From Escherichia coli (GTDB taxonomy: Bacteria > Pseudomonadota > Gammaproteobacteria > Enterobacterales > Enterobacteriaceae): a stretch of DNA of 64,000 bases. The DNA is taken from assembly GCF_024298765.1 (NCBI RefSeq), contig NZ_CP101210.1; one strand, written 5' to 3'. A program made the translations under genes and the position numbers. Positions 5,194 to 22,180 of the stretch are shown here, one piece after another; the first letter of the stretch is position 1, and every line of letters starts with the position of its first letter. Under the pieces are notes generated by a model. That model was not told the origin of the DNA and ran no database searches. It worked only from the letters and a program-made list of their open reading frames with translations.

Positions 5194-5377
5194 ACCGGTA
5201 TCCTGTTGATTTCGCTGAACCGGATCACACTAATCCGGTTTATCATTCAGGTAATATGGACGTGAAAAATGATGGAATGTCTGAATTACGGACATGATTG
5301 TTAAAGTGTAATGGAGTATGAAGTGAGTTTTTCCGAACGGGAACTAATGACATACTGCGGTTTCAGGAGATGAGAGG

Positions 5378-6508: not shown

Positions 6509-8013
6509 TACCATTTAACTGAAAGCCACCATAACGTCTTTTTGACTACATTTATGATAATGCGTCTCATTTTGTTTTCGTTTTTTTGTTCAGGGAAATT
6601 TTCCGAACATCAGTGATAATGAGGGTTTTGTTGTTTTTGTTTCTGCAATGTTTGAGGACTGTTCCTGGAGACGATTCGTTGCTTGTGAGCAAGAGGTGGT
6701 CCGCTTTACTGGACAAGTTTTGCATTTGTTGAGTGGTGAAATGGAAGTAAAAAGAGCCCCTTTCTGGCAATGGTTGAAAAAGTCAGTAGCGTGTGACAGT
6801 AAAAGCTAACATAAAGTGATTATCGTATGATTATGACAATGACTTATAACTTTTATGAAAAGAACAACAGAAACTACGAAGCCATAGCAGATTCCTGAGA
6901 CCATGTTTTCTGAGGTAGAGAAAATAATTCCAGAGTAAATCTGTTCTGTTTTTAGGACAGAAAACTCCATGCTGGCTGTAAAAGTGAAAAATTAACACCC
7001 AGTATGTATGGAAGTCTGAAGATGTTGAGAATGTCGGTATGATACTATATACACATATTTTACTAAGTATTTTTACTAAGCATTTCAGTAAGTGTTATAC
7101 ACGTATTTTCATAAACACTTCTACAATTGTTTTCGTTAAGCATTGCTATACACATCCAGTTTAGTAAATCTTTACGTTAACTAAATCAGTTTAATGCTGC
7201 TGTAAAACCTTTCTGCTTCAGCAATCAATCTGCTATTCGATTTTACTGATGTTACGTTTAACCTTTCCTGAGATTTCGAGTTTCGACGTTAGCATGAGAA
7301 AAGTATCTTTACGCTAAATCAACCCGAACTTTCCTGAAGTAATCTGACGTTCTTTTCGATGTGCTTACAACGATTCTGTTAAATGACTTTCTGGATGTTT
7401 TGATAACAATCAGATTTAGGCATTAACGATTCCTGACGTTTTTCTTTTCCGTGTAAGGTCATTGTTTTCGTCATGAGGTTTCTTCTTGCATTGCGAAAGT
7501 GTGATGAACGGTTTTGGTGTTTTGATTCAGATGAAGTTTACGTTATCGATGGTTAATCGTTTTTATGGTGCGTAGTGAAACGTAACGCTTTCAGGAAGGG
7601 AAAATCGATTCTGATGGGGATGATCGTGTAACGGCGTTATCTGTAAACAGGTTTTAAACATGTCATTCGCATCCGTGATTGAGTTGTGTGATTAAGCTGT
7701 AGGTTTTGGGGTTGTTGTTGATTTGCATTACCAGGAAGCGTTCTGGTTGCGTTTCTGGTGTTTTGTTTGAATGTTCTGTGGATCCTTTTCCCTTCTGACT
7801 TTTCTCGTTGTCTATGTCGTTTTTAAATCCATTCGCTGTTCTTGAGTGTTTTTACCCTGTGTGTAGAATTATCTTTTCGTTCCGGGATGGTTTGTTCCGT
7901 TTCAATCACTCTTAATCAGAAAGTTGTAGCATTGCTCAATGCCGGATGCCGTAAAGTTTTACCGCGGTGATTAATGATGTGAAGTCAATCCAAATCAACG
8001 GAGATCTCTCATC

Positions 8014-8745
8014 ATGAATCAACCAATACACAATGCTTACTGGTTATCCCGTTTTGACAGCCTTCTCGACAGTGCCCTGGCGCAGCACCGTGCCGTCTCG
8101 TTAATCCGGGTGGATTTACGTTTCCCTGAGTATATGCCTGTCACCATCATGGATCCCGATCCGGATTCAGCGGTGATTTCTCGTTTTTTTGCATCCCTGA
8201 AAGCCAAAATTCAGGCTTACCAGCGGAAAAAAAGATGTGCCAATCAGCGTGTGCATGCAACCAGCCTGGGTTATTTCTGGTGCCGGGAGTTCGGCAAGAT
8301 GTATGGCAGGAAACATTATCACGTGATATTACTGCTCAACAAAGATACCTGGTGCTCGCTCGGGGATTTCAGCGAACCGTCTTCGCTGGCGACGATGATC
8401 CAGGAGGCATGGTGCAGCGCCCTGCATCTTGAGCCCTGGCAGGGTAATGGACTGGTTCATTTTTCCAGGCGGACGCCTTTCCGTAAACCGACATCATCTG
8501 ATGCTCGCCCTTCTTCCGATGATACGCCTTTGTCGGGTGGATGTTCTGAAACCAGGAAGGTTTCAGACAAAAAGTCTGGTGAAGCCGCTGTTCTCTGGAT
8601 CAAGCGTGGTGATGTGGAAGCGATGCAGAAAGCCCGGAACAGAGCCAGTTATCTCGTGAAAAATGAAACGAAGTTGCATGATGGTTCAGGTCAACGTAAT
8701 TATGGTTGCAGTCGTGGGCCGGGGCGTCTACTGGATGGCAGGTGA
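8014..8745 (+). CDS. YagK/YfjJ family protein (inovirus Gp2-like)
   Basis: 243 aa; YHVILLLNKD core; preceded by ~1.5 kb AT-rich leader; IS1 lies about 350 bp downstream. Confidence 0.55.
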   Translation: MNQPIHNAYWLSRFDSLLDSALAQHRAVSLIRVDLRFPEYMPVTIMDPDPDSAVISRFFASLKAKIQAYQRKKRCANQRVHATSLGYFWCREFGKMYGRKHYHVILLLNKDTWCSLGDFSEPSSLATMIQEAWCSALHLEPWQGNGLVHFSRRTPFRKPTSSDARPSSDDTPLSGGCSETRKVSDKKSGEAAVLWIKRGDVEAMQKARNRASYLVKNETKLHDGSGQRNYGCSRGPGRLLDGR

Positions 8746-9111
8746 ACCCTGTAAAACAGCATCTGGTGCCTGAGTGTATACCACGGTAAGGGCGTTGGAT
8801 GATGTCTTTAAATAATACAGTGCATTTTCATTCGTTTCCGCACTTTATGTTTTCACTAATCATAATAGGAAAAGTGACCACTAGCCTTGATAAATTGTAT
8901 TCACGGCCATTTCAGGAGTGGATTGTTGTGAATAACACGATGAGATCAGGGGGCTGAAGATTTTTTCTTTATCCGTTCAGACTTCAGTAACTGGAAAAAG
9001 CTTTCTGTAACCGCATTATAGTGGCAGTTACCGCGATGGTCGTGTTATTTCAGGAACGACTGACGCTCATGGCTTGTACACTAAAGAGTGAACTTAGGTA
9101 ATGACTCCAAC

Positions 9112-9615
9112 TTATTGATAGTGTTTTATGTTCAGATAATGCCCGATGACTTTGTCATGCAGCTCCACCGATTTTGAGAACGACAGCGACTTCCGTCCCA
9201 GCCGTGCCAGGTGCTGCCTCAGATTCAGGTTATGCCGCTCAATTCGCTGCGTATATCGCTTGCTGATTACGTGCAGCTTTCCCTTCAGGCGGGATTCATA
9301 CAGCGGCCAGCCATCCGTCATCCATATCACCACGTCAAAGGGTGACAGCAGGCTCATAAGACGCCCCAGCGTCGCCATAGTGCGTTCACCGAATACGTGC
9401 GCAACAACCGTCTTCCGGAGACTGTCATACGCGTAAAACAGCCAGCGCTGGCGCGATTTAGCCCCGACATAGCCCCACTGTTCGTCCATTTCCTCGCAGA
9501 CGATGACGTCACTGCCCGGCTGTATGCGCGAGGTTACCGACTGCGGCCTGAGTTTTTTAAGTGACGTAAAATCGTGTTGAGGCCAACGCCCATAATGCGG
9601 GCAGTTGCCCGGCAT
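9112..9615 (-). CDS. insB: IS1 transposase InsB
   Basis: 167-aa ORF matching IS1 InsB as recalled. Confidence 0.9.
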
Positions 9616-9809
9616 CCGACGCCATTCATGGCCATATCAATGATTTTCTGGTGCGTACCGGGTTGAGAGGCGGTGTAAGTGAACTGTAGTTGCCATGTTT
9701 TACGGCAATGAGAGCAGAGATAGCGCTGATGTCCGGCAGTGCTTTTGCCGTTACGCACCACGCCTTCAGGAGCGGAGCAGGAAGGACATCTGATGGAAAT
9801 GGAAGCCAC
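9534..9809 (-). CDS. insA: IS1 protein InsA
   Basis: 91-aa ORF; Zn-finger CPSC...CSHC and HTH of InsA. Confidence 0.9.
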
Positions 9810-10072
9810 GCAAGCACCTTAAAATCACCATCATACACTAAATCAGTAAGTTGGCACCATTACCTGACCAAGCTTCCTCTATTGCGGCACCTGATTGCAT
9901 CAATATCGAAAGTGATAAGATCCTCTCACTAGCAGGGCATGACAAGTGTAACTGCTGATTTGTTAGCCTGTTTTAAGTTTTTTAAGATCAATTATTTCTC
10001 ATTTTTTGACTTTATTGCTAGCCGTGAAAATGCAAAGCCTATAGGATACAAAAATTACAATTTGTAGGTTTT

Positions 10073-10579
10073 GTGAGTCATATGAAGGCAACCAATATAG
10101 ACCCTCAACTGCTTGAAAAAGCCACGAGTATCTTTGCTGAGTTGGGCTTACCTATTGAGCAGGCTATTAACGTCTTTTTAGCTAAATCCGTTCAAGCCAA
10201 AGGTTTTCCGTTTTCTGTTGCTCTTGAAAATGAAGTAGAGACACGGGAAGTTGCACAAACGCAACACAATATCAGCAATGCAGAGATAACCGAAGCTATC
10301 CAAGACTTGGTTGAACATGCTCTACCACTGAGTGAAATAGAAAACCTCACGCAGCTAACCTATTGTCGCAACATTTTTGGGTTGTCATTCCCCGTGCTCA
10401 AACTGGCTAAATCATCACGGCCAGAAGACATTCGCAGTGCAGCCAAAGATGCCAAAGAGCGAAACCGCTACTCCACCACTAAAGTGGCCCAGCGAGATGA
10501 AAAAACCTATGTTATTTGCACCCAATGGACCGACAGACATCGTTCTGCATTTTGCCGTTGGCAAGCCATCTTTAGCTAG
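10073..10579 (+). CDS. RelB/DinJ-like antitoxin-domain protein with ~100-aa C-terminal extension
   Basis: N-terminal IDPQLLEKATSIFAELGLPIEQAINVFLAKSVQAKGFPFSV resembles DinJ/RelB fold; no toxin ORF adjacent; ends 66 bp before hsdM. Confidence 0.4.
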   Translation: MSHMKATNIDPQLLEKATSIFAELGLPIEQAINVFLAKSVQAKGFPFSVALENEVETREVAQTQHNISNAEITEAIQDLVEHALPLSEIENLTQLTYCRNIFGLSFPVLKLAKSSRPEDIRSAAKDAKERNRYSTTKVAQRDEKTYVICTQWTDRHRSAFCRWQAIFS

Positions 10580-10645
10580 AACGCAAAATAATAACCAAAC
10601 AATACACTGATTTTTTAACGATTTAACTTCATTTAGGTAGTATCA

Positions 10646-12625
10646 ATGAACTTACAAGACAAAGAACAAAGCGCCAAACTCTCCAGTGCTATTTGGCGTA
10701 TGGCAGATGATTTATGGGGTGATTTCAAACACACCGATTTTGCGCGGATTATCCTGCCATTTTTGCTACTGCGTCGTATTGAATGCGTGTTAGAACCCAC
10801 CCGTGAGGAAGTTCGTAAGTTCTATCTGGCCGAAAAACAATCCGGCATAGACCTTGGTTTAGTGTTGCCAGAAATTGCGGGATTCGCCTTTTACAACACC
10901 AGTGAATATAGCCTAGAAACCTTAGGCGCGTCAGACACCGGCGACAACCTAGAACACTACATCAGCCAGTTCAGCAAAAACGTTCGTACCATCTTTGATG
11001 AGTTTAAATTTGGTCAAACCATAGAAGATCTGGAAAAAGCCAAGTTGCTGTATCGCATGGTAAACCATTTTGCCAACCTCGACTTGCATCCTGATGTAGT
11101 GTCTGACCGCGTATTATCAGATGCTTATGAAGAGCTGATTCTAAAGTTCGCCAGTTCGGTTAATGAAAAGGCCGGGGAATTTATGACCCCGCGTGATGCC
11201 GTGCGTCTTGCCACCAAACTGGTGCTGGCGGCGGATGAAGATATCTTTAGTGAAAAGGGTGTGATCCGCACCATCTATGACCCAACCTGTGGCACGGGCG
11301 GTTTCCTTTCCGATGCCATTAGCCAAATTGAAGAAATGGGCAGCAGCGCTAAAGTCGTGCCTTTTGGTCAAGAGCTCGACCCCGCGACCCATGCCATGGC
11401 GCTGACCAATATGATGATCCGCGGTTTTGATGCCAATAACATCAAGCAAGGCAACACCTTATCAGACGATCAGTTACGTGCCGACAAGTTTCACTACGGC
11501 CTTGCCAACCCGCCATTTGGCATTAAGTGGGAAAAAGCCAAGAAAGAAGTAGAACGTGAGCACAAACAGCTCAAATACGCCGGACGCTTTGGGCCAGGCC
11601 TGCCGAGTATTTCTGATGGTTCAATGCTGTTTTTACTGCACTTGGTATCAAAAATGGAAACGCCGGAAAATGGTGGTGGCCGAGTGGGTATAGTCCTTTC
11701 TGGCTCGCCACTGTTTAATGGCGATGCAGGCTCAGGCCCATCAGAAATCCGCCGTTGGCTGCTAGAACAAGACTTAGTCGAAGCGATTGTTGCCCTGCCA
11801 ACCGATATGTTCTTCAACACCGGCATTGGCACCTACATCTGGATTTTGACTAACCATAAAGAGCCAAGACGCAAGAATCAGGTGCAACTGATTAACTTGG
11901 CAGATATTTGGACTCCCATGCGTAAATCGCAAGGCGATAAGCGCAAGTACCTGAGTGATGAACAGATTGACGATATTGTCCGTGCGTACGATGGCTTTGA
12001 AGCCAGTGACAACTGTAAGATCTTCCAGACTACTGATTTTGCCTACCGTAAAGTCACCATTCAGCGTCCACTGCGTGCCAAACTAGATATTACCGCTGCG
12101 GGCATTGCTGCATTTGTGCAGCAAGATACGTTTAAAAAACTCAAACCAGAGCAACAAGCGGCATGGGTACAATACCTCACCGATAACCTTGGCCTTCAGC
12201 CTTATGAATGGGCACGTTTGGCGGTTAAGAAGAATAACAATAAGGGTGACTTTGGTAAGTGCTCAAAAGCACTGGCTACGGCCTTAACTGCGCACTTTGT
12301 AAAAATTGATCCGCAATTTGAGCCTGCACTGGATGAAAAAGGCCAAGTGATCGCCGACCCTAAACTCAAAGACACCGAAAGCATTCCTTTTGACCGCGAC
12401 GTTGAAGATTACTTCGCACAAGAGGTGCTGCCACATGTACCGGATGCCTTTATTGATCACTCAGTGCGTGATGAAAAAGACGGCGAAGTGGGCATTGTCG
12501 GTTATGAAATTAACTTTAACCGCTATTTCTACCAATACGTGCCACCACGCGAGTTGAGTGTGATTGATCGTGAGCTAAAAGCATGTGAAGCGCGCATTCA
12601 GGCTCTGCTGAATGAGGTGGCGTAA
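10646..12625 (+). CDS. hsdM: Type I restriction-modification methyltransferase subunit HsdM
   Basis: 659 aa; motifs FMTPR, DPTCGTGGFL (SAM binding), NPPFG (catalytic); stop overlaps hsdS start (TAATG). Confidence 0.9.
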   Translation: MNLQDKEQSAKLSSAIWRMADDLWGDFKHTDFARIILPFLLLRRIECVLEPTREEVRKFYLAEKQSGIDLGLVLPEIAGFAFYNTSEYSLETLGASDTGDNLEHYISQFSKNVRTIFDEFKFGQTIEDLEKAKLLYRMVNHFANLDLHPDVVSDRVLSDAYEELILKFASSVNEKAGEFMTPRDAVRLATKLVLAADEDIFSEKGVIRTIYDPTCGTGGFLSDAISQIEEMGSSAKVVPFGQELDPATHAMALTNMMIRGFDANNIKQGNTLSDDQLRADKFHYGLANPPFGIKWEKAKKEVEREHKQLKYAGRFGPGLPSISDGSMLFLLHLVSKMETPENGGGRVGIVLSGSPLFNGDAGSGPSEIRRWLLEQDLVEAIVALPTDMFFNTGIGTYIWILTNHKEPRRKNQVQLINLADIWTPMRKSQGDKRKYLSDEQIDDIVRAYDGFEASDNCKIFQTTDFAYRKVTIQRPLRAKLDITAAGIAAFVQQDTFKKLKPEQQAAWVQYLTDNLGLQPYEWARLAVKKNNNKGDFGKCSKALATALTAHFVKIDPQFEPALDEKGQVIADPKLKDTESIPFDRDVEDYFAQEVLPHVPDAFIDHSVRDEKDGEVGIVGYEINFNRYFYQYVPPRELSVIDRELKACEARIQALLNEVA

Positions 12626-13911
12626 TGAATGCTGGCAACATAGTAGATGCTTTCGTATCTGACTCGAAATGGAACTCAGTACCAGCTAAACGTTTATTTA
12701 CGAGTAGCAAAGAAATCAATCAAGGAATGAAAGAATCTAATCGTCTTGCACTAACAATGAAAGGTGTCATAAACCGCTCGTTAGACGATTTACAAGGACT
12801 TCAATCTTCTGATTACTCTGTTTATCAGATTTTTGAAAAAGATGACTTAGTTTTTAAGCTCATAGATCTTGAAAATATAAAGACTAGCCGAGTGGGGATT
12901 GTGCATGAACGAGGAATAATGAGCCCTGCATACATCCGTGTTTCAGCGAGTTCAAATAGCATCTACCCAAGGTTCTATTACTGGTACTTTTTTGCTCTAT
13001 ACCTAACCAATATTTATAACAAACTGGGTGGAGGAGTTCGTCAGAACCTAACAGCTGGTGATCTTTTAGAAATACCTGTTCCACTGATTGATATTTCATT
13101 ACAGAAGCAGGTTAGCACATTCCTTGATCGCGAAACCCAGCGCATCGACAGTCTGATCGAGGAAAAGCAGACCTTTATTAAGCTGCTCAAAGAAAAACGC
13201 CAAGCACTGATCAGCCATGTGGTCACAAAGGGGCTCTATCCCAATGTGGAGATGCAGGACTCTGGCATCGAGTGGATTGGGCAAGTGCCGAAGCATTGGG
13301 AAGTCAAAAAGATAAAGCATATTTGCTCCAACTTTATGTATGGAACCTCTCAAGACTGTAACCAGTCTGATGTTGGCTATCCTGTTCTCAGGATACCAAA
13401 CATCAAGAGTACCAATGTTGATTTTGAAGATCTCAAATATGCAAATATCAGTGATGTTGATGCTTTAACTTATCTTTTATCAAGAGGCGACATTTTAGTC
13501 ATCAGAACTAACGGTAACCCTAATCTGGTCGGCCAAAGCGCGCTTTTTGATTCAAATGGGCAGTATTTATTTGCGTCGTACCTAATAAAGTTAACACCAA
13601 AGCAAGGAGTGGATACTAGCTTCTTAGTGGAAGCGATGAACTCACTATCTGTTCGTCAAGCATTAACATTTCAGTCAAGAACATCGGTAGGTAACTACAA
13701 CCTGAGCATTCCTTCACTAGCTAATACAAGTATTGCTATCCCACCAATTGATGAGCAAAAGACAATAACGAATTACTTGAGTGCAGCAACGATAAACATT
13801 GATTTACTGATTCAAGAGACTGATAAATCGATTGATCTTCTAAAAGAACACCGCACATCGCTGATCAACGCGGCTGTCACAGGAAAAATAGACGTCAGGG
13901 AGGCGGTGTAA
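12625..13911 (+). CDS. hsdS: Type I restriction-modification specificity subunit HsdS
   Basis: 428 aa; two variable target-recognition regions separated by conserved central (ETQRIDSLIEEKQTFIKLLKEKRQALI) and C-terminal repeats; TAATG overlaps on both sides. Confidence 0.85.
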   Translation: MNAGNIVDAFVSDSKWNSVPAKRLFTSSKEINQGMKESNRLALTMKGVINRSLDDLQGLQSSDYSVYQIFEKDDLVFKLIDLENIKTSRVGIVHERGIMSPAYIRVSASSNSIYPRFYYWYFFALYLTNIYNKLGGGVRQNLTAGDLLEIPVPLIDISLQKQVSTFLDRETQRIDSLIEEKQTFIKLLKEKRQALISHVVTKGLYPNVEMQDSGIEWIGQVPKHWEVKKIKHICSNFMYGTSQDCNQSDVGYPVLRIPNIKSTNVDFEDLKYANISDVDALTYLLSRGDILVIRTNGNPNLVGQSALFDSNGQYLFASYLIKLTPKQGVDTSFLVEAMNSLSVRQALTFQSRTSVGNYNLSIPSLANTSIAIPPIDEQKTITNYLSAATINIDLLIQETDKSIDLLKEHRTSLINAAVTGKIDVREAV

Positions 13912-16900
13912 TGGCTGCACATCATGAAGTGCATTTTGAACAATATATTACCGAGCAGTTGGTGAACAATGGCTGGAAAGAAGGCCATTCCTGCCACTAT
14001 GACCAGCAACGCGCCCTTTACCCGCAAGATGTCATGGATTGGGTAAAGGCCACCCAGCCAGATGCCTGGCACAAACTGAATAAACTGCATGGTGTGAATG
14101 CCGAGCAGGTGCTGTTGGAGCGTTTGGAAAAAGCCCTCTCTTCCCACAAAGCTGGCAGTAAAACAGGTGGCACCATTAATGTGCTGCGTAAAGGCTTTAC
14201 CATTGCAGGTTGCGGCACGATTGCCATGGGCCAACGCAAACCCGAAGATGCGCGCAATGAAGAGCGTATAGCCCGTTATGAGCACAACATTTTGCGCGTG
14301 GTGCGCCAACTGAAATATTGCCCGACTCGCGAGTGGGAAATTGACTTGGTGTTCTTTATCAACGGTCTACCCGTTGCCACCGCCGAGCTAAAAACCGATT
14401 TTACCCAGTCGCTAGAATCGGCGATTGCGCAGTACAAAGAGGATCGTCTGCCCGTTGACCCAAAAACCAAGCGTAAAGAGCCGCTGTTAACCTTTAAACG
14501 CGGTGCAGTGGTACATTTTGCCATGTCTGATACAGAAATCGCCATGGCGACCAAACTGGCGGGAGAAAATACCTATTTTCTGCCCTTCAATAAAGGCCAT
14601 GATGGTTCTACCTCTGATTTGCCCGTACACATCAACTTGCCGGGTGAAGATGGAGAGTATCCGGTCAGCTATTTTTGGCAAGAAATTGCCCAAAAAGATA
14701 ATTGGCTACGCATTTTCTACAGCTTTGTGTATGTCGAAACCAAAGAGGTTGCCGATAGCAATGGCAAGGTTGAGCGTAAGGAAACACAGATTTTTCCGCG
14801 TTATCATCAGTTAGCCGCAGTCAACAAGATGATTGATGATGCCCGCCAGAACGGCGCAGGCATGCAGTATCTTTGTGAGCACAGCGCCGGTTCGGGAAAA
14901 ACCTCTACCATAGCCTGGACGGCCCATGATTTGATTCGTTTACGCAGCACCGATGGTAAAGCGGTCTTTAAATCAGTGATCATTGTGACCGACCGCACCG
15001 TGCTGGATTCGCAGTTGCAAGATGCGGTGCAACAGCTGGATCATCAATATGGGGTGATTAAGGCGATTGATCGCGAAAAGAGCAGCGAGTCGAAATCAAA
15101 ACAGCTGACTGAAGCGCTATTGACTGGCACGCCGATCATTGTAGTGACGATTCAAACCTTCCCATATGCGTTAGAAGCGATTCTGACCAATCAATCTTTG
15201 GCACAAAGTAACTTTGCGGTGATCATCGATGAAGCACACACCTCGCAAACAGGCTCTACAGCCAAAGGGTTACGCGCAGCGCTTACTCTAAACCTTAGCC
15301 CTCAAGAGTTGGAGCAAATGAGCATTGAGGACATTCTTACTAAGGTGCAAGAAGCGCGCGCCATGCCCAAGAACGTTTCGCACTTTGCTTTTACGGCAAC
15401 ACCCAAGCACAGCACCAAGATGTTGTTTGGCCGCCCGAAAGACCCTAACCAACCAGTGTCAGATGACAATCTTCCTGAATCGTTCCACCTCTACACCCAA
15501 CGTCAGGCCATTGATGAGGGTTTTATTCTTGATGTGCTGGAGAATTACACCCACTACGATACAGCCTACAAAATTGGTGAGAACAATCTGGATGAGAAGC
15601 GCGTAGACAGCAAACAAGCTCGCCGCGCGTTGGCGCGCTGGATGTCACTGCACCCAACCACGGTCAGCCAAAAAGTCGAATTTATTATTAAGCACTTCAA
15701 GGCCAATATCGCTCACCTACTGGAAGGTGAAGCCAAAGCCATGGTGGTCACATCGGGCAGGCCACAGGCGGTGAAATACAAGCTTGCTTTTGATAAATAC
15801 ATTAAAAAGCATGGTATTGAAGGTATCCAAGCCTTGGTTGCCTTCTCGGGCAAAGTCCCCGGCAAAGATTTGGGTGATGAAGACAGCCAAGACCCGCTAG
15901 AAATTGATTTCGATAAAGAGTACACCGAGTACAACTTAAACCCAGACACGCACGGGGCTGACCTGCGCCATGAGTTTGAGAAAACCGAATATCGCGTCAT
16001 GTTAGTCGCCAACAAGTTCCAAACGGGCTTTAATCAACCAAAACTGGTTGCCATGTATTTGGATAAGAAAATATCCGATGTAGAAGCGGTGCAAACGCTG
16101 TCTCGCCTAAACCGCACCTATCCAGGCAAAGACACAACCTTCGTGATTGATTTTGTTAACGATCCACAAACCATTCTCAATGCGTTCAAAAAGTACGACA
16201 AAGGCGCGCAGCTTAATGAAGTGCAAGATGTGAACGTCATCTATGACATCAAAGATATTTTGGATGAACAGAACATATACAACCATCAAGATTTAGAGTT
16301 GTTTAAGCAAGCGCGTGGTAAATCGATTCTCGGCCAATCACCTGACAAAAAGCCACACGCGCACAAGAAACTGCTAGCTGCCACACAACGCCCTACCGAT
16401 GTGTTCAACGTTAAGCTCAAAGAGCTGGTTGATGCTGCAAACCATTGGGATCAGCAATACAACAAAGCGCACCTTGCGGGTGATGAAAAAGCGGCGAACT
16501 ACGCAGAATCTCAGCGCAGTGATTTCACCAAGCAGCGCGAAGCACTAATGCGTTTTAAGTCAGATTTAGCTCGATTTGTGAAGCACTATAGCTATATGGC
16601 GCAATTGATTGAGTTTGGTGATCCTGAACTGGAAAACTTTGCCGCGTTTGCTCATTTGCTATCACGTCGATTGAAAGGGGTAACACCAGAAAACATCGAT
16701 CTCAGTGCACTGGTACTAGAAAAATTCAAAATCAAATACGACAAAGAGCCGCTTCCAGAAGCGTTTAATCAGGTACTTGAACCTATCCGCCCCAACTATA
16801 ACGACCCTGCGGATCGTGAACAGGCATTTCTTGCCGATATCATTCGCCGCCTAAACGAACTGTTTGGCGATGTCGGCGACGAACCCGGTCGCCGAAACTT

Positions 16901-17147
16901 TGCCAACGGTACTATTACGCGTGTCACCCAAAATCCAATTGTGGTTGAGCAGATAGAAAAGCACGACAAGTCGATTGCCCTCAAAGGCGACTTGCCGCAA
17001 GCGGTGAAGCAAGCCGTTGTGCAGGCTCTGCTGAAAGAAGGTGATATAGCCCGAACGCTACTCAAAGACCCACAAGTTATGGCAAGTTATGTTGAGTTGA
17101 TTTTTGACATGATGAAGCAAGGTGCAGAACAGGCGGCGGTGAAATAA
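13911..17147 (+). CDS. hsdR: Type I restriction enzyme endonuclease/helicase subunit HsdR
   Basis: 1078 aa; Walker A GSGKTST and DEAH box (VIIDEAHTSQ); GGGAGG RBS; TAATG overlap with hsdS and with downstream gene. Confidence 0.9.
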   Translation: MAAHHEVHFEQYITEQLVNNGWKEGHSCHYDQQRALYPQDVMDWVKATQPDAWHKLNKLHGVNAEQVLLERLEKALSSHKAGSKTGGTINVLRKGFTIAGCGTIAMGQRKPEDARNEERIARYEHNILRVVRQLKYCPTREWEIDLVFFINGLPVATAELKTDFTQSLESAIAQYKEDRLPVDPKTKRKEPLLTFKRGAVVHFAMSDTEIAMATKLAGENTYFLPFNKGHDGSTSDLPVHINLPGEDGEYPVSYFWQEIAQKDNWLRIFYSFVYVETKEVADSNGKVERKETQIFPRYHQLAAVNKMIDDARQNGAGMQYLCEHSAGSGKTSTIAWTAHDLIRLRSTDGKAVFKSVIIVTDRTVLDSQLQDAVQQLDHQYGVIKAIDREKSSESKSKQLTEALLTGTPIIVVTIQTFPYALEAILTNQSLAQSNFAVIIDEAHTSQTGSTAKGLRAALTLNLSPQELEQMSIEDILTKVQEARAMPKNVSHFAFTATPKHSTKMLFGRPKDPNQPVSDDNLPESFHLYTQRQAIDEGFILDVLENYTHYDTAYKIGENNLDEKRVDSKQARRALARWMSLHPTTVSQKVEFIIKHFKANIAHLLEGEAKAMVVTSGRPQAVKYKLAFDKYIKKHGIEGIQALVAFSGKVPGKDLGDEDSQDPLEIDFDKEYTEYNLNPDTHGADLRHEFEKTEYRVMLVANKFQTGFNQPKLVAMYLDKKISDVEAVQTLSRLNRTYPGKDTTFVIDFVNDPQTILNAFKKYDKGAQLNEVQDVNVIYDIKDILDEQNIYNHQDLELFKQARGKSILGQSPDKKPHAHKKLLAATQRPTDVFNVKLKELVDAANHWDQQYNKAHLAGDEKAANYAESQRSDFTKQREALMRFKSDLARFVKHYSYMAQLIEFGDPELENFAAFAHLLSRRLKGVTPENIDLSALVLEKFKIKYDKEPLPEAFNQVLEPIRPNYNDPADREQAFLADIIRRLNELFGDVGDEPGRRNFANGTITRVTQNPIVVEQIEKHDKSIALKGDLPQAVKQAVVQALLKEGDIARTLLKDPQVMASYVELIFDMMKQGAEQAAVK

Positions 17148-17701
17148 TGAATACTGCGTTTCGGGTTTTACTTACGTTCAATGCAACATCACTACTAGTG
17201 ATTATCTTTGCGGTACAAAAAGGGTACTCACTCGGATATTTCTTTGGTGGTTTCGCTTGCTTCGATTGGATAGCAGCACTTCCGAACGCAGTATCATATT
17301 TACTCTATTTTCTTATCCCTGTTTTATCGACTGGATTGAGTATTTGGCTGAGTAAGTATTTGGGTAAAGACGATTTTAAGGCGGGTGAAGTAGCGAGTAT
17401 TGAGCATGCCAATAACAGCTTCCTACCAAGTTATTTGGGTTACTTTTTCGTGGCGTTGAGCATTGGTAACTGGGAGACATTGTGGTTTGTTTATGGCGTT
17501 TTGTTTGTTTTTACTCTCTTATCGCAAGCACTCTACTTTAACCCATTGTTTTTACTGTTTGGTTATGAGTTTTATAACATTACAACCAAAAACGGAACGG
17601 CCATTTTCCTTATTAGCCGAGAGCGCTACAAGAAGCCAGATGACATCGAAATATCATTGGCTTATCGAATCAATAATTACACATTTATCGAGCGAGGATA
17701 A
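17147..17701 (+). CDS. small integral membrane protein (about 4 predicted TM helices), translationally coupled to hsdR; KwaA-like candidate
   Basis: 184 aa; hydrophobic segments LLVIIFAV, YLLYFLIPVLSTGLSIWL, YLGYFFVALSI, LWFVYGVLFVFTLL; start overlaps hsdR stop (TAATG); visibly more AT-rich than hsdR. Confidence 0.6.
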   Translation: MNTAFRVLLTFNATSLLVIIFAVQKGYSLGYFFGGFACFDWIAALPNAVSYLLYFLIPVLSTGLSIWLSKYLGKDDFKAGEVASIEHANNSFLPSYLGYFFVALSIGNWETLWFVYGVLFVFTLLSQALYFNPLFLLFGYEFYNITTKNGTAIFLISRERYKKPDDIEISLAYRINNYTFIERG

Positions 17702-18543
17702 TGATGGACCATGTACTGGCACATATAAAAACTAGAGCAAAAAAACGCATTTTCAAATTGGTTTCTGATCAATCTCTTTTTGATACCGTCACAATCGACT
17801 TAAATGCCTGTATTCCATACAATCCAGACCATAACCTTGACGAAGACTCATGGTTTAAAATTGAAGACTTTAGTCAAAAAGAGTTTTGTATTGAACTGCT
17901 AAAAAAAGACTATGATTCAAAAGACTACGATGACTTAACCAAAGATAACTTCGCCAAGATCGCCTACTTATTTGCAATTCAAGGTAATGATTTTTACTTT
18001 CAAAAAATCACTCCAAGCCTATTCGTAAAACGCAAAACGCTTGTTTTTGGTGAAGCCGCAGAAATTGAGAAGAGCCAAACACGTTTAGTAATAAACGCCT
18101 TACCTGATGCAGTGTACTTCAAAGTGGCCGATACCTTGATATTCAAAAATCTGGCAACGATCTCGAGCATTTTTAAAGGTATCGATGAGTTGTACAAGGA
18201 AGCAACAAAAGAAGAAGTTGAGCAGTTTTTAGATGCACAGTTTATAGAGTTGGGTAATGACTACAACGTAGATAGCGTCTCAAAACCTAATAGAAAACGT
18301 ATTGGCCTTGCTATGGCAACACTTGATGCGATGTCTGCTGACGATAAAGCTAACATGCTTGATTATATCGACGGTTACTGCGGTGAACAGAAGCTGAAAT
18401 TCGATAAAGAAAATCAGAAGTTTGAAATATCTAATGACGATGAGTTGAAGTTACTGCTTTATGGCATTGAACAACGCTTCTATACGACCCCGTTTGGCAA
18501 AGAAAAAAGGCTCGCTAACTCTGTAACCGCTATGGATAAATAA
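17701..18543 (+). CDS. hypothetical acidic cytoplasmic protein, coupled to the membrane protein; KwaB-like candidate
   Basis: 280 aa, no TM segments, GAGG RBS, start overlaps upstream stop (TAATG); family not recognised by eye. Confidence 0.6.
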   Translation: MMDHVLAHIKTRAKKRIFKLVSDQSLFDTVTIDLNACIPYNPDHNLDEDSWFKIEDFSQKEFCIELLKKDYDSKDYDDLTKDNFAKIAYLFAIQGNDFYFQKITPSLFVKRKTLVFGEAAEIEKSQTRLVINALPDAVYFKVADTLIFKNLATISSIFKGIDELYKEATKEEVEQFLDAQFIELGNDYNVDSVSKPNRKRIGLAMATLDAMSADDKANMLDYIDGYCGEQKLKFDKENQKFEISNDDELKLLLYGIEQRFYTTPFGKEKRLANSVTAMDK

Positions 18544-18563
18544 TAGCCCATTATCAGTAACAT

Positions 18564-19613
18564 ATGAAGGTTGATTCAATGGCCGATAACATCCCACAAG
18601 CTCCTCAAGGTGAGTTTGTTCTTTTCACCAGTGCTGATGGTCAAACCCGCGTTGAGTGTCGTTTTGAGTCTGACACCTTGTGGCTTTCTCAGGCTGCAAT
18701 GGCAGAGCTTTATCAAGTTAGCTCTCAAGCAATCACCCAACACGTAAAAGCTGTCTATTCTGAAGAAGAGCTTGAGCAAATTTCAACTTGTAAGGATTAC
18801 TTACAAGTTCAACTGGAAGGTGGCAGAGAAGTAAAGCGAAGCATTCGTCACTACAGTCTTCCGGTTATTCTTGCAGTAGGATACCGAGTTCGCTCAACAC
18901 GTGGCACCCAGTTCCGCCAATGGGCAACCAGAATGTTGCAAGAATACCTAATCAAAGGATTCGTCATGGATGACGAGCGCCTGAAAAATCCGCCCATTGG
19001 CCATTCTGCTGTGCCAGATTACTTTGATGAAATGCTGGAACGCATTCGTGATATCCGAGCTAGTGAGCGTCGCGTTTATCTGCGAGTCAAAGAAATCTTT
19101 ACCATGGCTGCTGATTACGAGCCATCTAACCAAGAGACCAACCGCTTCTTCCAAACCATTCAGAATAAGCTGCATTATGCTTGTACGCATATGACGGCTG
19201 CTGAGCTTATCGCCAGCCGTGTGGATGCCAGTAAGCCGGATATGGGCTTAACCAGCTATAAAGGCGATGAAGTGCGCAAGACAGACGTTACTGTTGCCAA
19301 GAACTATTTGCGTGAAGACGAAATCAAAGAGCTTAATCGCATCGTCAATATGTGGCTCGACTTTGCTGAAGACCAAGCACTGCGTCGCAAGCAGGTATTT
19401 TTACAGGACTGGGCCGATAAGCTTGACCAGTTCTTGAGTTTTAACGATAGAGATGTATTAAACGGTGCAGGAAAAATCTCCAAGAAAGACGCTGATGACA
19501 AAGCGAAATTGGAGTTTGACCGCTTTGCCCAGCAGCGCCGTCGTTTAAAAGAAGCCGAAGGCGCACGGGCCAATATCGCAGCCCTCAAGGCCATACTAAA
19601 AAAAGATAAATAG
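18564..19613 (+). CDS. rhuM: RhuM-family protein
   Basis: 349 aa; sequence recalled as RhuM family, often found beside Type I RM loci; likely true start at ATG 18579 (GAAGG RBS). Confidence 0.55.
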   Translation: MKVDSMADNIPQAPQGEFVLFTSADGQTRVECRFESDTLWLSQAAMAELYQVSSQAITQHVKAVYSEEELEQISTCKDYLQVQLEGGREVKRSIRHYSLPVILAVGYRVRSTRGTQFRQWATRMLQEYLIKGFVMDDERLKNPPIGHSAVPDYFDEMLERIRDIRASERRVYLRVKEIFTMAADYEPSNQETNRFFQTIQNKLHYACTHMTAAELIASRVDASKPDMGLTSYKGDEVRKTDVTVAKNYLREDEIKELNRIVNMWLDFAEDQALRRKQVFLQDWADKLDQFLSFNDRDVLNGAGKISKKDADDKAKLEFDRFAQQRRRLKEAEGARANIAALKAILKKDK

Positions 19614-19670
19614 CCGATATAGTACAGCCCTGATCTCTAATGAGTTGAGGGCTGTGTTGTAAGATCATAA

Positions 19671-20347
19671 CTATAAAGGATTATCCATCTTAAAATCGTC
19701 GATATCGCCTGTCATTTTGAATAGATTGGTGTCATTCCAACGGCACAGTTGTCTAACCCGCATTAGATTTGAGTTGGCTCTGCGGATTATTGAGAAAGCA
19801 TCTTCAACAGCAGTAATCACCGATTTTTCCCAATCTTGTGCTCGGGTAAAGGTGCTTTGTGAATAGCGATAATTGCCCTCACGGGGGAGGTAATGGCTGA
19901 TCACCTGGTATTTGTCAGAATTCTTTTTAGGTTTAAACTCGTTGTAAACCCAGAAAATTTCGAGTTTTTTGTTTCTTTGCCTTACACGACAACCAAAATG
20001 ACCTGGGTAGCCTTCAGAGTTTTTACCTCTATGTGCAACGTTGTTCAGCCAGAACAAGTCTGCAATTTTTTGTGCTATGTAGAAGTAGCGGAGCTGTTCT
20101 ATTTCGGTTGATTTATGGGTGTAGTGTAGATATTGCTCTGATATGGTTAAGGAAAAAGCATTGCGTCGTCTTGATTAACATTTGTGCTATTGACAATAAA
20201 GGTTTCCCAAATATTAATTTGTGTTTCTAGTCCTTTAAATGATTTTGAGAAGGCTTCTATGTACTCAGATTGCGGTTGATTTCCCCCATTTAGTGCTGCA
20301 CCAAATGTAGCTATCTATTGTTCTAAAAATGAATGATTTTTGGTCAT
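19671..20347 (-). pseudogene. disrupted gene of unknown function (at least three frame segments)
   Basis: 128-aa ORF has no in-frame ATG at its 5-prime end and is open upstream; two more open segments in other frames up to an ATG near 20347. Confidence 0.4.
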
Positions 20348-20425
20348 TACATAATCCTCTGTGTGGTTGATACTGCGTATTTTCATGAAAGGAGATCACT
20401 CAATAACCCCCCTGTGTCAGCATAG

Positions 20426-20803
20426 TTGTCGCCTCAATTTTTTAAGGAGATAACAATGCCAGGACAACCAATACCAAATGAGCTCAAAGAAAAAGGACTG
20501 ATATGGCTTTTGCCACCATACTGTTGGTCACACCGTCAGATAGCCCGGAAGCTGAAGATCAGTGCCTCAGTTGTATCAAAATGGAGATGTGAGTTAGTGG
20601 AGCAAGGACTTTTACCTGAAAATGAAAAGATTACCTCCGTTGATGTTGAAGACTGGACACCGGAGCGTCGATTCTCAGTTGTTCTTGAGACGGCTACGCT
20701 GTCTGTCACGAACGGTGCAATAGTGGATCACTTTTCATCCGTCGTTGACACTGTCAGAAATGGAGCTTGCCGATTATTGCCGACGCATGGGATTGTTTGT
20801 TGA
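20426..20803 (+). pseudogene. transposase OrfA-like HTH protein, frameshifted
   Basis: HTH SHRQIARKLKISASVVSKW; continuation (leucine-zipper-like RELEKELKRKDKALAEAAALL) lies in another frame. Confidence 0.45.
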
Positions 20804-21376
20804 ACAGGTTAAAGAATGGCGGGCTATCTCAATTCAGGCGCATGAAAAAAATTGACGGAAAATATTCGAACAGACAGGGCATTGCGTGACGCAAAAAATA
20901 AGTTACGAGAACTGGAGAAAGAGCTTAAGCGCAAAGATAAAGCTCTGGCGGAAGCTGCGGCCCTGCTTATATTAAGGGAAAAGTTCAATGCCCTCTGGGA
21001 CAACAGCGAGGAAGACTGCCCCCTCTCCTGGAGCGGCATAAAATTATTTCTCTTGTCCGTGAGGCCGTCGCCAACGGCGCCCGGAAAGGTCAGGCTTGTA
21101 GGTGTATCGGTATTTCTATTCGGACACTTCAGCGCTGGACTAATGGCAACATCATCACCACGGACCGAAGATCCGATACTGTAAACAGCTCTCCCCGAAA
21201 TAAGCTGTCAGAAGCGGAAAGATTGCGAATACTGGAGTTGTGCAACTCTCCAGAGTTTGCATCCTTGCCTCCAAATGTGATCGTACCAACTCTGGCAGAC
21301 AGAGGTATTTATATTGCTTCTGAATCAAGTTTTTATCGTGTACTGAAATCAGCCAAGCAGTTGAAGAAACGATCCC

Positions 21377-21853
21377 GTGAATGCCAGTATAAACTGGCCT
21401 GATGTACTCAGGGCCGTTGCACCGAATCAAGTCTGGAGTTGGGACATCAGCTATTTGCCGTCCTGGGTCAGAGGCCAGCATTTTTACCTCTATATGATCG
21501 TCGATATTTACAGTCGCAAAATTATTGCTGCTGAGGTATTTGCCAGCGAATCTGGAAAACATGCAGCAGAACTACTCCAGCGTGCAGTATGGAATGAAAA
21601 ATGTTCATCCAACAATCTGGTACTCCATTCTGATAACGGTGGTCCCATGCGCAGTGACACGTTGTTGGCGAAAATGTATGCGCTTGGTGTGCTAAGTTCT
21701 TATTCCCGGCCAAGAGTCAGTAATGATAATCCTTACTCAGAATCTTTGTTCCGGACTCTCAAATATTGTCCCTGGTGGCCTGAGAACGGTTTTCGCACTA
21801 TTGATGATGCCAGAGTATGGGTAAACCAGTTTTGTAAACTGGTACAACTTTGA
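21377..21853 (+). pseudogene. DDE transposase catalytic core fragment
   Basis: WSWDISYLP...YLYMIVDIYSRKII...HSDNGGPM motifs; N- and C-terminal parts in other frames. Confidence 0.5.
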
Positions 21854-22180
21854 ACATAAGCACAGCGGGATCAAATACGTCACGCCAGCCGAGCGTCATC
21901 AAGGTAATGACATGAAAATACTGGCAGCCTGAAAAGCGGTATACCAGCTAGCTCGCGAGCAACATCCTGAACGTTGGGGCAAGTATCTACGTAACTGGAA
22001 CTACATATCAGAAGTCTACCTGAATCCAGAAAAAGAGGCTGCATAACGTAATTTTATTACAAAAAGCGACAACTACCTTGAAAAACACCGCCAAATCATG
22101 ATCGATTCGAATGCCAAACTGCGATCGATTCAGATGCCATTTTGCATGCTGCCAGAGCAATATTCCCCCTGATGGTTGTA

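What the first reader, a model, noticed from the sequence alone, without database searches (positions are those of the whole stretch)
10646..18543. Type I RM operon with two extra translationally coupled genes: candidate Kiwa-like or undescribed defence module
hsdM, hsdS, hsdR, a 184-aa 4-TM membrane protein and a 280-aa acidic soluble protein are joined by four consecutive TAATG stop/start overlaps (12623-12627, 13909-13913, 17145-17149, 17699-17703), so all five are almost certainly co-transcribed and translationally coupled. The two extra genes are visibly more AT-rich than hsdM/hsdR, suggesting separate acquisition. A small multi-TM protein paired with a ~300-aa soluble protein is the architecture of Kiwa (KwaA/KwaB, DUF4868) and of other membrane-anchored abortive-infection pairs, but no family was recognised by eye. 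A direct fusion of such a pair into an hsd operon is not something I know to be described.
Basis: partly seen in the sequence, partly recalled or inferred. Interest (0 to 1): 0.85.

Follow-up and report, generated by a model that had tools for sequence, protein, structure and literature searches.

The report
Kiwa defence genes on restriction operon
The two extra genes are a divergent copy of the known Kiwa anti-phage system (KwaA/KwaB) joined to the end of a type I restriction-modification operon, a new combination of two known things; the modestly new point is that this Kiwa branch sits behind restriction operons in over half of the species examined.

Summary
hsdM, hsdS, hsdR, a 184-aa membrane protein and a 280-aa acidic protein are joined by four TAATG stop/start overlaps at the stated coordinates. 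The last two genes are more AT-rich than hsdM and hsdR.

The pair is Kiwa. PADLOC models call them KwaA (E 9e-16) and KwaB (E 7e-14). AlphaFold models match only solved KwaA and KwaB structures in the PDB. At sequence level the branch is remote: the Pfam KwaB model misses this protein, and family profiles miss solved KwaB.

The window is an E. coli genomic island. The block is in 76 of 5,426 complete genomes and is 87-90% identical in DNA to Vibrio loci.

The arrangement is not a one-off. In 77 species-level loci, kwaAB lies directly behind a co-oriented type I hsd operon in 43 (56%). These span at least 8 HsdR families and three gene orders. Other loci follow type II or type III restriction genes.

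Defence genes embedded in type I RM loci are already described (PrrC, DarTG2, "guilt-by-embedding"). A specific Kiwa-RM link was found only as one table row.

Most likely this is an autonomous Kiwa layer co-transcribed with restriction. Functional cooperation is possible but untested.

Interest is moderate to low. I class it as a new member of a known kind.

The parts
10082..10579 (+). RelB/DinJ-like gene: an N-terminal antitoxin-type DNA-binding domain plus about 90 aa of unknown function. It is a candidate regulator or first gene of the block.
   Evidence: NCBIfam TIGR02384 RelB_DinJ, E 1.7e-10, residues 7-78, just below the curated cut-off. PGAP annotates it in L001. It is conserved upstream of hsdM in Vibrio L011 and L012. 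A regulatory role is inference only.
10646..12625 (+). hsdM, the type I RM methyltransferase subunit (659 aa)
   Evidence: PADLOC MTase_I PDLC03029, E 1.9e-243, full length. PGAP calls it 'type I restriction-modification system subunit M'.
12625..13911 (+). hsdS, the specificity subunit (428 aa)
   Evidence: PADLOC Specificity_I, E 4e-97. Against the Vibrio relatives only the central (about w13117-13316) and terminal parts match in DNA, which I read as target-recognition-domain swapping.
13911..17147 (+). hsdR, the restriction/translocase subunit (1078 aa). Its last about 5 codons (QAAVK*) look derived from an hsdS 3' end.
   Evidence: PADLOC REase_I, E 3e-30; NCBIfam TIGR00348, E 8e-49.
17147..17701 (+). 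kwaA, the Kiwa membrane subunit (184 aa, about 4 TM helices plus a beta-rich C-terminal domain)
   Evidence: PADLOC KwaA PDLC00216, E 9.3e-16, residues 2-182 on model positions 3-170 of 173. NCBIfam KwaA, E 1e-5, below cut-off. AF2 model pLDDT 84.9. The top five Foldseek PDB hits are all KwaA (9mrx_A, 9mrg, 9mrr; E 1.4e-4 to 2e-3; best TM 0.62) and the next hit has E 2.9. dN/dS is 0.03-0.10.
17701..18543 (+). kwaB, the Kiwa soluble DNA-binding effector with the DUF4868/KwaB fold (280 aa)
   Evidence: PADLOC KwaB PDLC00222, E 7.1e-14, residues 33-276. AF2 model pLDDT 92.5. The top six Foldseek PDB hits are all KwaB (9mtn, 9mrx_D, 9nyu; E 5e-7 to 5e-6; TM 0.62; 11% identity) and the next hit has E 0.57. 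Pfam PF16162 KwaB hits 3 of 67 family representatives but not this protein. dN/dS is 0.04-0.06.
18579..19613 (+). RhuM-family gene (PADLOC candidate PDC-S05), 35 nt after the kwaB stop; probably the last gene of the transcription unit
   Evidence: PADLOC PDC-S05, E 8e-167. PGAP calls it 'virulence RhuM family protein'. It is conserved with the block in Vibrio, and with kwaAB alone in L014.
17130..17149 (+). Left boundary of the mobile kwaAB cassette: the hsdR stop / kwaA start overlap, plus about 15 nt resembling the 3' end of hsdS (…QVTVK*)
   Evidence: DNA homology to other loci begins at w17130-17144. There is a 16-nt exact match between L011 and the hsdS 3' end of L020. hsdS 3' remnants lie upstream of kwaA in L017, L005-L010, L021 and L014.

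Best explanation
Window 10082-19613 is one horizontally acquired defence block in an E. coli genomic island that, in a relative strain, is integrated at the leuX tRNA. It holds a RelB-like gene, a complete type I RM system (hsdM-hsdS-hsdR), a Kiwa system (kwaA-kwaB) and a RhuM-family gene. kwaA-kwaB is a promoterless 1.4-kb cassette from a deep Kiwa branch. It is joined to the 3' end of hsdR by a one-base stop/start overlap, so it is most likely transcribed from the hsd promoter and translated by coupling. I infer that it works as described for Kiwa. KwaA forms a membrane-embedded oligomer that holds KwaB dimers and senses membrane perturbation when phage DNA is ejected or a plasmid conjugates. 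KwaB then binds the incoming DNA and blocks its replication and late transcription. The type I enzyme cuts unmodified DNA independently. The result is two layers of defence against incoming DNA, inherited and expressed as one unit. The cassette probably came from an hsdR-hsdM-hsdS-kwaA-kwaB locus and carried the last few hsdS codons with it. Shown here: gene structure, family and fold identity, cassette boundaries, recurrence next to restriction operons, and purifying selection. Inferred: co-transcription, complex formation, the mechanism, and any anti-phage activity.
For: ORFs and overlaps. Kiwa identity: PADLOC KwaA and KwaB models, and AF2 models whose only significant PDB matches are KwaB and KwaA. 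The gene order (kwaA then kwaB) and the sizes (184 and 280 aa) are close to the solved pair (195 and about 300-315 aa). Mechanism of Kiwa: 10.1101/2023.02.26.530102. Selection: dN/dS 0.03-0.10 for both genes. Cassette autonomy: the same pair at 65-81% DNA identity follows different operons. These include three type I gene orders and at least 8 HsdR clusters, type III and type II restriction genes, a PLD-DEAD-DUF3427 helicase and PDC-M26; some loci stand alone with their own upstream spacer. Homology boundaries are exactly at the ORF ends. Origin: Vibrio L011 and L012 share the whole block at 87-90% DNA identity. hsdS fossils. HsdR tail against its homologues. No internal promoter or terminator signal above chance. 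In E. coli, hsdR and kwaAB always occur together, in the same 76 genomes.
Against: No expression or phenotype data exist for this locus. The branch is so remote from the solved Kiwa (11-20% identity) that conservation of the DNA-binding residues and of the KwaA-KwaB interface was not checked. The Pfam KwaB model and the family profiles do not reach solved KwaB at sequence level. I could not establish that any tested Kiwa belongs to this branch. The strong bias towards restriction operons (56% type I) is more than a purely independent module would need. It hints at a functional or mechanistic link that this explanation leaves open.
Confidence: 0.72

Rival explanations
1. Functional integration with restriction. 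This Kiwa branch cooperates with, or backs up, the adjacent restriction enzyme rather than acting alone. KwaB might hold incoming DNA at the entry site and stall replication, lengthening the time restriction has to act. Alternatively it might soak up, or be triggered by, DNA-mimic anti-restriction proteins such as Ocr, ArdA or Gam, so that one inhibitor cannot disable both layers.
For: kwaAB lies directly behind a co-oriented type I operon in 43 of 77 species loci, 30 of them with an overlap or a gap of at most 6 nt. The junctions involve at least 8 HsdR clusters and three gene orders, four of them nested M-S-kwaAB-R. Other loci follow type III and type II restriction genes. Kiwa is inhibited by the DNA mimic Gam, and Gam is partitioned between Kiwa and RecBCD (10.1101/2023.02.26.530102). 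Type I enzymes are well-known targets of DNA mimics (established knowledge). PrrC in EcoprrI is the precedent for an embedded backup.
Against: The partners differ in type (I, II, III, helicase-nuclease). That argues against a specific protein-protein contact with Hsd subunits. About a third of loci have no restriction genes in view. Some sit beside SoFic, Dodola or a PAPS reductase instead. Part of the bias can be explained by shared descent from one R-M-S-kwaAB ancestor, as the hsdS fossils suggest. No experimental data exist.
Confidence: 0.22
2. Pure hitch-hiking (genomic sink). The promoterless cassette is tolerated at the 3' end of restriction operons because they are steadily expressed, hard to lose and often transferred. 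The linkage then brings the host no benefit beyond having two unrelated systems.
For: The cassette has no flanking sequence of its own. Embedding in defence loci is widespread for many unrelated systems, and the genomic-sink idea is discussed in 10.1101/2024.01.29.577857. The hsdS 3' fossils show spread by recombination from one ancestral context.
Against: Several independent junctions, with precise overlaps re-created in different operon types, suggest selection for coupling. This rival is hard to separate from the best explanation by sequence alone. It differs only in denying an advantage to the linkage.
Confidence: 0.3
3. The genes are not a defence module. They might be a housekeeping membrane complex or decaying passenger genes.
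For: PGAP labels both 'hypothetical protein' in most records. Some records carry the odd name 'ATP F0F1 synthase synthase'.
Against: Both folds match only Kiwa proteins. dN/dS is 0.03-0.10. The neighbours are always defence or mobile-element genes. The block is present in only 1.4% of complete E. coli genomes. The 'ATP synthase' name has no support from Pfam or NCBIfam.
Confidence: 0.03

Closest known systems
Kiwa (KwaA/KwaB; Doron et al. 2018; the structure and mechanism paper, read here as preprint 10.1101/2023.02.26.530102; PDB 9mrx, 9mtn, 9mrg, 9mrr, 9nyu)
   Same: It is a two-gene unit with kwaA before kwaB. KwaA is a small multi-pass membrane protein and KwaB is a soluble protein of about 280-315 aa. 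Both predicted folds match the solved proteins and nothing else in the PDB. PADLOC Kiwa models hit both.
   Different: Sequence identity to the solved proteins is only 11-20%. The Pfam KwaB model misses the window protein, NCBIfam KwaA is below its cut-off, and family profiles do not detect solved KwaB. KwaB is about 20-35 aa shorter. The cassette has no promoter region of its own and mostly rides on restriction operons. The preprint reports Kiwa co-localising with prophages, plasmids and genomic islands. This branch was absent from 50,697 phage records and found in only 20 of 72,556 plasmid records.
prr locus: PrrC anticodon nuclease nested in the EcoprrI type I RM operon (hsdM-hsdS-prrC-hsdR)
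   Same: A second defence function sits inside or on a type I hsd operon, co-oriented and tightly packed. Four relatives (L058, L060, L069, L073) have kwaAB in exactly the prrC position, between hsdS and hsdR.
   Different: There is no homology: PrrC is an ABC-ATPase anticodon nuclease. PrrC is held silent by physical contact with EcoprrI and released by the phage Stp peptide (as summarised). No such dependence is shown or likely here, because the partners are of several restriction types. In the window the pair is appended after hsdR rather than nested.
RRDM island of EPEC E2348/69: RptR-hsdM-hsdS-DarT-DarG-hsdR-M48 (PMC12255303)
   Same: It is an E. coli genomic-island type I RM operon carrying an embedded two-gene defence system, flanked by IS elements and shown to act as one regulated anti-phage island. 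DarTG also lies next to kwaAB in Shewanella and marine loci.
   Different: The embedded system there is DarTG2, not Kiwa. The regulator there is the 79-aa RptR. Here the upstream gene is an unrelated 166-aa (PGAP call) RelB/DinJ-like protein.
[quoted passage not shown]
   Same: The general phenomenon and its proposed rationales (co-regulation, linked transfer, backup) apply here. RhuM (PDC-S05), the next gene, is one of the candidates that PADLOC carries.
   Different: Kiwa is not mentioned in that paper's text or in its held supplements. Their definition needs genes nested between system genes. In the window kwaAB is appended to the 3' end.

Membership tests
Kiwa defence system | Two adjacent co-oriented genes, kwaA followed by kwaB | tested here: met
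   kwaA is at 17147-17701 and kwaB at 17701-18543, with a one-base overlap. The order is kept in every one of the 77 intact species-level loci, plus the 9 metagenome/genome relatives L002-L010.
Kiwa defence system | [quoted passage not shown] | tested here: met
   Hydropathy and AF2 helices are consistent with about 4 TM helices. Foldseek's top 5 PDB hits are all KwaA, E 1.4e-4 to 2e-3, best TM 0.62. PADLOC KwaA gives E 9e-16 over the full length. The NCBIfam equivalog is below its cut-off, 25 against 100 bits. No dedicated TM predictor was run.
Kiwa defence system | KwaB carries the DUF4868/KwaB domain (Pfam PF16162) | tested here: inconclusive
   By sequence, the Pfam model does not hit the window protein. 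It hits 3 of 67 family representatives at E<=1e-3. PADLOC KwaB models do hit, at E 7e-14. By fold the test is clearly met: the top 6 PDB hits are all KwaB, E 5e-7, TM 0.62, and the next hit has E 0.57.
Kiwa defence system | KwaA tetramer and KwaB dimer form a membrane supercomplex | not testable with these tools
   Only monomer prediction was available. This needs multimer modelling or pull-down.
Kiwa defence system | KwaB binds DNA through conserved basic or polar residues; Gam inhibits it | not tested
   The family has near-invariant Q101, D136, T169, N197 and R198, within an NRKR motif at 197-200. No structural superposition onto the DNA-contact residues of the solved protein was possible.
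Kiwa defence system | Protects against phage and reduces conjugation | not testable with these tools
   This is experimental.
Type I restriction-modification system | HsdM, HsdS and HsdR genes are all present and intact | tested here: met
   PADLOC MTase_I gives E 2e-243, Specificity_I E 4e-97 and REase_I E 3e-30. NCBIfam hsdM and hsdR models also hit, below their cut-offs. The ORFs are intact and PGAP does not flag them as pseudogenes.
PrrC-type guard embedded in a type I RM operon | The embedded protein is an ABC-ATPase anticodon nuclease nested between hsdS and hsdR and silenced by the RM enzyme | tested here: not met
   No PrrC or ABC-ATPase model hit either protein. In the window the pair lies after hsdR. 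Dependence on the RM enzyme is not testable here.
'Embedded' defence system in the sense of Payne et al. 2024 | Genes nested between genes of a host defence system, in the same orientation | tested here: not met
   In the window kwaAB follows the last hsd gene, so it is appended rather than nested. The feature is met in the relatives L058, L060, L069 and L073, which have the order M-S-kwaAB-R.

The most novel reading that the evidence does not exclude
This deep Kiwa branch may be a dedicated companion of restriction enzymes. It has been captured repeatedly at the 3' end of type I, II and III restriction operons. The proposed reason is that KwaB acts on the same incoming DNA. It could hold that DNA and stall its replication so that restriction wins the race against methylation. 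Or it could compete for DNA-mimic anti-restriction proteins (Ocr, ArdA, Gam), so that a single inhibitor cannot disarm both layers. That would make RM-Kiwa a functionally integrated composite system rather than two neighbours.
Probability: 0.22. Interest if true: 0.6.

Novelty: new member of a known kind. Interest (0 to 1): 0.38.

Why it matters
As it stands, the finding re-labels two 'hypothetical' or mis-named genes as a divergent Kiwa system. The wrong name in circulation is 'ATP F0F1 synthase synthase'. The genes are present in 76 complete E. coli genomes and in many Vibrio, Shewanella and Aeromonas genomes.

It also adds Kiwa to the list of systems hard-wired to type I RM operons. The comparative result goes a little further. 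One Kiwa branch is found behind restriction operons in over half of the species sampled. It has exact-ORF cassette boundaries and a fossil of an hsdS 3' end.

This gives a concrete natural test case for two open questions. The first is whether operon-level linkage of defence systems reflects synergy or mere hitch-hiking. The second is whether 'inhibitor partitioning' between DNA-binding defences extends from RecBCD to restriction enzymes. If neither holds, this is an ordinary defence-island arrangement.

Tried and rejected
- **Direct sequence links to solved Kiwa.** Searching the PDB with either protein by phmmer, or with profiles of 67 (A1) or 25 divergent (A5) family members, found no KwaB. 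Only the fold comparison made the link.
- **Pfam-A on the two proteins.** There were no significant hits. Pfam KwaB appears only for 3 of 67 relatives.
- **Genome scan with the broad alignment A1.** I repeated it with the narrower A2.
- **Promoter and terminator scan of 9800-20400.** It found fewer sites than the shuffled expectation, so it says nothing about internal signals.
- **An integron-type cassette.** I considered an attC site after kwaB and rejected it. Only 20-35 nt separate kwaB from rhuM, and homology ends at the stop codon.
- **RptR as the regulator.** The upstream gene is an unrelated RelB/DinJ-like protein, whereas RptR is 79 aa.
- **Comparison with canonical Kiwa loci.** I could not compare RM linkage because I could not obtain a canonical KwaB sequence with these tools. 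The preprint's supplements are not held and the published Cell version is not in the library.
- **Which published cluster this branch belongs to.** I could not tell whether any experimentally tested Kiwa (ECOR8, ECOR12, ECOR49, D9, Ralstonia, S. thermophilus) belongs to it. Accession searches found nothing.
- **Literature searches for an explicit Kiwa-hsd operon.** They found only an incidental table row.

Full report
**1.

The + strand carries five ORFs:
- hsdM, 10646-12625, 659 aa
- hsdS, 12625-13911, 428 aa
- hsdR, 13911-17147, 1078 aa
- a 184-aa ORF, 17147-17701
- a 280-aa ORF, 17701-18543

TAATG is present at 12623, 13909, 17145 and 17699, so each start codon overlaps the previous stop by one base.

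GC content is 0.389 and 0.371 for the last two genes. It is 0.476 for hsdM and 0.480 for hsdR, and hsdS is also low at 0.402. The 184-aa protein is hydrophobic, with a pattern consistent with four TM helices. The 280-aa protein is acidic, with pI 5.0.

Overlapping stops and starts are a normal operon signature rather than a statistical oddity. A consensus scan found no promoter-like or terminator-like sites above shuffled expectation in the region.

- A RelB/DinJ-like gene (10082-10579 as called by PGAP) lies 66 nt upstream of hsdM.
- A RhuM-family gene (18579-19613; PADLOC candidate PDC-S05, E 8e-167) starts 35 nt after kwaB.

**2. What the two extra genes are**

PADLOC profile HMMs identify the 184-aa protein as KwaA (PDLC00216, E 9.3e-16, nearly full length). 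They identify the 280-aa protein as KwaB (PDLC00222, E 7.1e-14, residues 33-276).

Other libraries are weak or silent:
- NCBIfam KwaA scores 25 bits against a 100-bit cut-off, and there is no NCBIfam KwaB hit.
- Pfam-A gives nothing for either protein.
- phmmer, and profiles of 67 or 25 family members, find no solved KwaB in the PDB sequence set.

I therefore tested the fold.
- **KwaB.** An AlphaFold2 model of the 280-aa protein, built on 67 diverse relatives, has mean pLDDT 92.5. Its only significant Foldseek matches in the PDB are six KwaB chains (9mtn, 9mrx_D, 9nyu; E 5e-7 to 5e-6, TM 0.62, 11% identity). The next hit has E 0.57.
- **KwaA.** The model of the 184-aa protein has pLDDT 84.9. 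It matches only KwaA chains (9mrx_A, 9mrg, 9mrr; E 1.4e-4 to 2e-3, best TM 0.62). The next hit has E 2.9.
- **Transitive link.** The Pfam KwaB model (PF16162) hits 3 of the 67 relatives.

Gene order and sizes also fit. The pair is a Kiwa system from a deep, sequence-remote branch.

Both genes are under strong purifying selection, with dN/dS 0.03-0.10 against five relatives.

Databases already partly know this:
- DefenseFinder labels this family 'Kiwa KwaB_2' (PMC12409351).
- PGAP names the 184-aa protein 'KwaA family protein' in some E. coli records.
- KwaB is still called 'hypothetical protein', or carries the spurious name 'ATP F0F1 synthase synthase'.

**3. Where it comes from**

The window is E. 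coli chromosome. Window 10000-19700 is in 76 of 5,426 complete genomes at >=95% identity, 75 of them at >=99%, and always on the chromosome. The hsdR gene and kwaAB occur in the same number of genomes, 76 each.

In strain EM10-18-28 the block lies in a mosaic island bounded by an integrase next to a tRNA-Leu gene beside ahr/yjgR, which I take to be the leuX site. It is flanked by IS1 and by a mobI(A/C)-like gene.

Two Vibrio loci (L011, L012) share the whole block w10034-19612 at 87-90% DNA identity. The exception is most of hsdS, which I read as swapped target-recognition regions. The block was therefore imported as a unit from a Vibrio-like source.

**4. kwaAB is a mobile, promoterless cassette**

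Against dozens of other loci, DNA homology (65-81%) begins at w17130-17144 and ends at w18524-18545. That is 3-17 nt before the kwaA ATG to the kwaB stop. Relatives show the same pair in different settings:
- behind hsdR-hsdM-hsdS and followed by DarT-DarG, in a Shewanella island next to yicC;
- behind a PLD-DEAD-DUF3427 helicase, in marine metagenome contigs.

**5. How often it sits on restriction operons**

A scan of one genome per species returned 80 loci. In 77 of them both genes are intact. I annotated neighbours with iterated HMMs built from the Hsd proteins.

| Context of kwaAB (77 intact loci) | Loci |
|---|---|
| Co-oriented type I hsd gene ends within 150 bp upstream of kwaA | 39 |
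| ...of which overlap it or leave a gap of at most 6 nt | 30 |
| Co-oriented type I hsd gene 262-745 bp upstream | 4 |
| Total behind a type I operon | 43 (56%) |

Three gene orders occur:
- R-M-S-kwaAB, the most common.
- M-S-R-kwaAB, as in the window.
- M-S-kwaAB-R, in four loci, which is the position prrC holds in EcoprrI.

The adjacent HsdR proteins fall into at least 8 clusters at 35% identity. The junction has therefore formed several times.

Among the rest:
- L071 follows a type III res gene and a further restriction-enzyme-like gene, with a 4-nt overlap onto the latter.
- L090 follows a type II methylase-endonuclease pair.
- L077 lies 2 kb after a type IIG enzyme.
- L053 and L057 precede a type I operon.
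- Others sit beside SoFic, Dodola, PDC-M26, PDC-S06 or PDC-M09.

In E. coli, 33 further genomes carry 60-80% relatives. One is again M-S-R-kwaAB beside the same tRNA-Leu. Others lie next to a PAPS reductase/IbrB-like pair.

The branch is rare on plasmids (20 of 72,556 records) and absent from 50,697 phage records.

**6. A molecular fossil**

In R-M-S-kwaAB loci, the 45 nt before kwaA encode the conserved HsdS C-terminus (…DWLLPMLMNGQVTVK*). Remnants of this sequence lie before kwaA in loci that have no hsdS there:
- L017: 41 of 45 nt, with 60-70 nt alignable at E 4e-15
- L005-L010: 31 of 45
- L021: 27 of 45
- L014: 25 of 45

The background 99.9th percentile is 23 of 45.

In Vibrio L011 the HsdR protein itself ends in QVTVK*. 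It shares a 16-nt exact match with the hsdS 3' end of L020. In the window this tail has drifted to QAAVK*. HsdR homologues elsewhere end differently, for example …GESKDLIE.

I infer that the cassette was captured from an R-M-S-kwaAB locus and brought the last hsdS codons with it. This rests on short matches and is an inference.

**7. How it most likely works**

According to the Kiwa study (10.1101/2023.02.26.530102):
- The complex senses membrane changes at phage infection or conjugation.
- KwaB then binds the incoming DNA through its DUF4868 domain.
- This stalls replication and blocks late transcription.
- The DNA mimic Gam inhibits KwaB, but is shared out between KwaB and RecBCD.

I propose the same mechanism here, running in parallel with type I restriction and expressed from the same transcript.

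Evidence for autonomy: the pair attaches to restriction systems of several types and to non-restriction neighbours, and it sometimes stands alone.

What this leaves unexplained is the strength of the bias towards restriction operons. Two readings remain open:
- **Functional cooperation.** KwaB buys time for restriction, or partitions DNA-mimic anti-restriction proteins. I rate this at about 0.2.
- **Hitch-hiking.** The cassette rides on stably expressed, hard-to-lose operons after descent from one ancestral context.

**8. Comparison with what is known**

- Kiwa itself is a characterised system with solved structures.
- Defence genes nested in type I RM, BREX, DISARM and Hma loci are described as a general rule (10.1101/2024.01.29.577857).
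- PrrC/EcoprrI and DarTG2 in the EPEC RRDM island are worked examples (PMC12255303).
- The preprint of the Kiwa paper never uses the phrase 'type I', and its two uses of 'restriction', as far as shown, are general. The embedding paper and its held supplements do not mention Kiwa.
- The only link I found is one row of a co-occurrence table for Vibrio (PMC12409351).

The specific RM-Kiwa operon and its recurrence therefore appear undescribed in the searchable literature. They combine two known things in a known way.

**9. Verdict**

The 'undescribed module' reading and the 0.85 interest score are not justified.

I score interest at 0.38 and class it as a new member of a known kind. The score is not lower because of the clade-wide linkage to restriction operons and the hsdS fossil. 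Together they make a clean natural system for testing whether operon-level linkage of defences reflects synergy.

Noticed in passing
window 10082-10579 (+): A RelB/DinJ-type antitoxin-like domain (residues 7-78) is fused to about 90 aa of unknown function. It lies 66 nt upstream of hsdM, has no toxin partner nearby, and is conserved in the same place in Vibrio L011 and L012. It could be the operon's repressor, playing the role of RptR or C proteins without being related to them.
   Followed up: partly
window 18579-19613 (+): A RhuM-family gene (PADLOC candidate PDC-S05, E 8e-167) starts 35 nt after kwaB and is probably the last gene of the operon. It also travels with kwaAB alone in L014 (78% DNA identity across w17142-19613). 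In L082 it is nested between hsdM and hsdS.
   Followed up: partly
window 19671-20144 (-), 9112-9809 (-), 20426-22000: A mobI(A/C)-like gene converges on the block, and IS1 and IS3 remnants flank it. This suggests the block is a fragment of a genomic island that IncC or SXT-type conjugative elements can mobilise. That would fit its Vibrio, Shewanella and Aeromonas relatives.
   Followed up: no
L002-L010, L037, L061 (kwaAB then DarT-DarG); L027-L029 (DarT-DarG then kwaAB): DarT-DarG repeatedly lies immediately next to this Kiwa branch, with gaps of 2-12 nt downstream of kwaB. This is a second recurrent partner besides restriction genes.
   Followed up: partly
window 17130-17147; L011 9430-9447; L017 9380-9443: There is a fossil of the hsdS 3' end (…MNGQVTVK*) directly upstream of kwaA in loci without an hsdS there. 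In the window and Vibrio lineage these codons now form the C-terminus of HsdR.
   Followed up: yes
protein family of window 17701-18543 (P0001 and relatives): Many NCBI and UniRef records name this KwaB-like protein 'ATP F0F1 synthase synthase'. The name has no support from any profile library used here and seems to have spread by annotation transfer.
   Followed up: partly
E. coli NZ_CP098211.1 4250180-4257518 (L092); NZ_AP022298.1 901802-905097 (L094): Other E. coli lineages carry 60-80% relatives of kwaAB. One is a different type I operon (M-S-R, 135-nt gap) followed by kwaAB, next to the same tRNA-Leu integrase. Another is kwaAB followed by a PAPS reductase and an IbrB-like gene, beside T6SS remnants.
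   Followed up: partly
window 1-9100: This stretch is the backbone of a common E. coli integrative island. It includes a GTPase family protein, a DUF932 protein, an inovirus Gp2 family protein (8014-8745) and a YafY/WYL regulator. Partial matches occur in about 4,900 of 5,426 complete genomes, and 425 hold at least 80% of the stretch.
   Followed up: no
window 32000-56900: This stretch holds a type VI secretion fragment (tssF), sucrose-utilisation genes (porin, sucrose-6-phosphate hydrolase, PTS IIBC) and an AAA-domain protein. Outside about 9100-32200 the window differs from the best-matching strain for the hsd block, so the island is mosaic.
   Followed up: no
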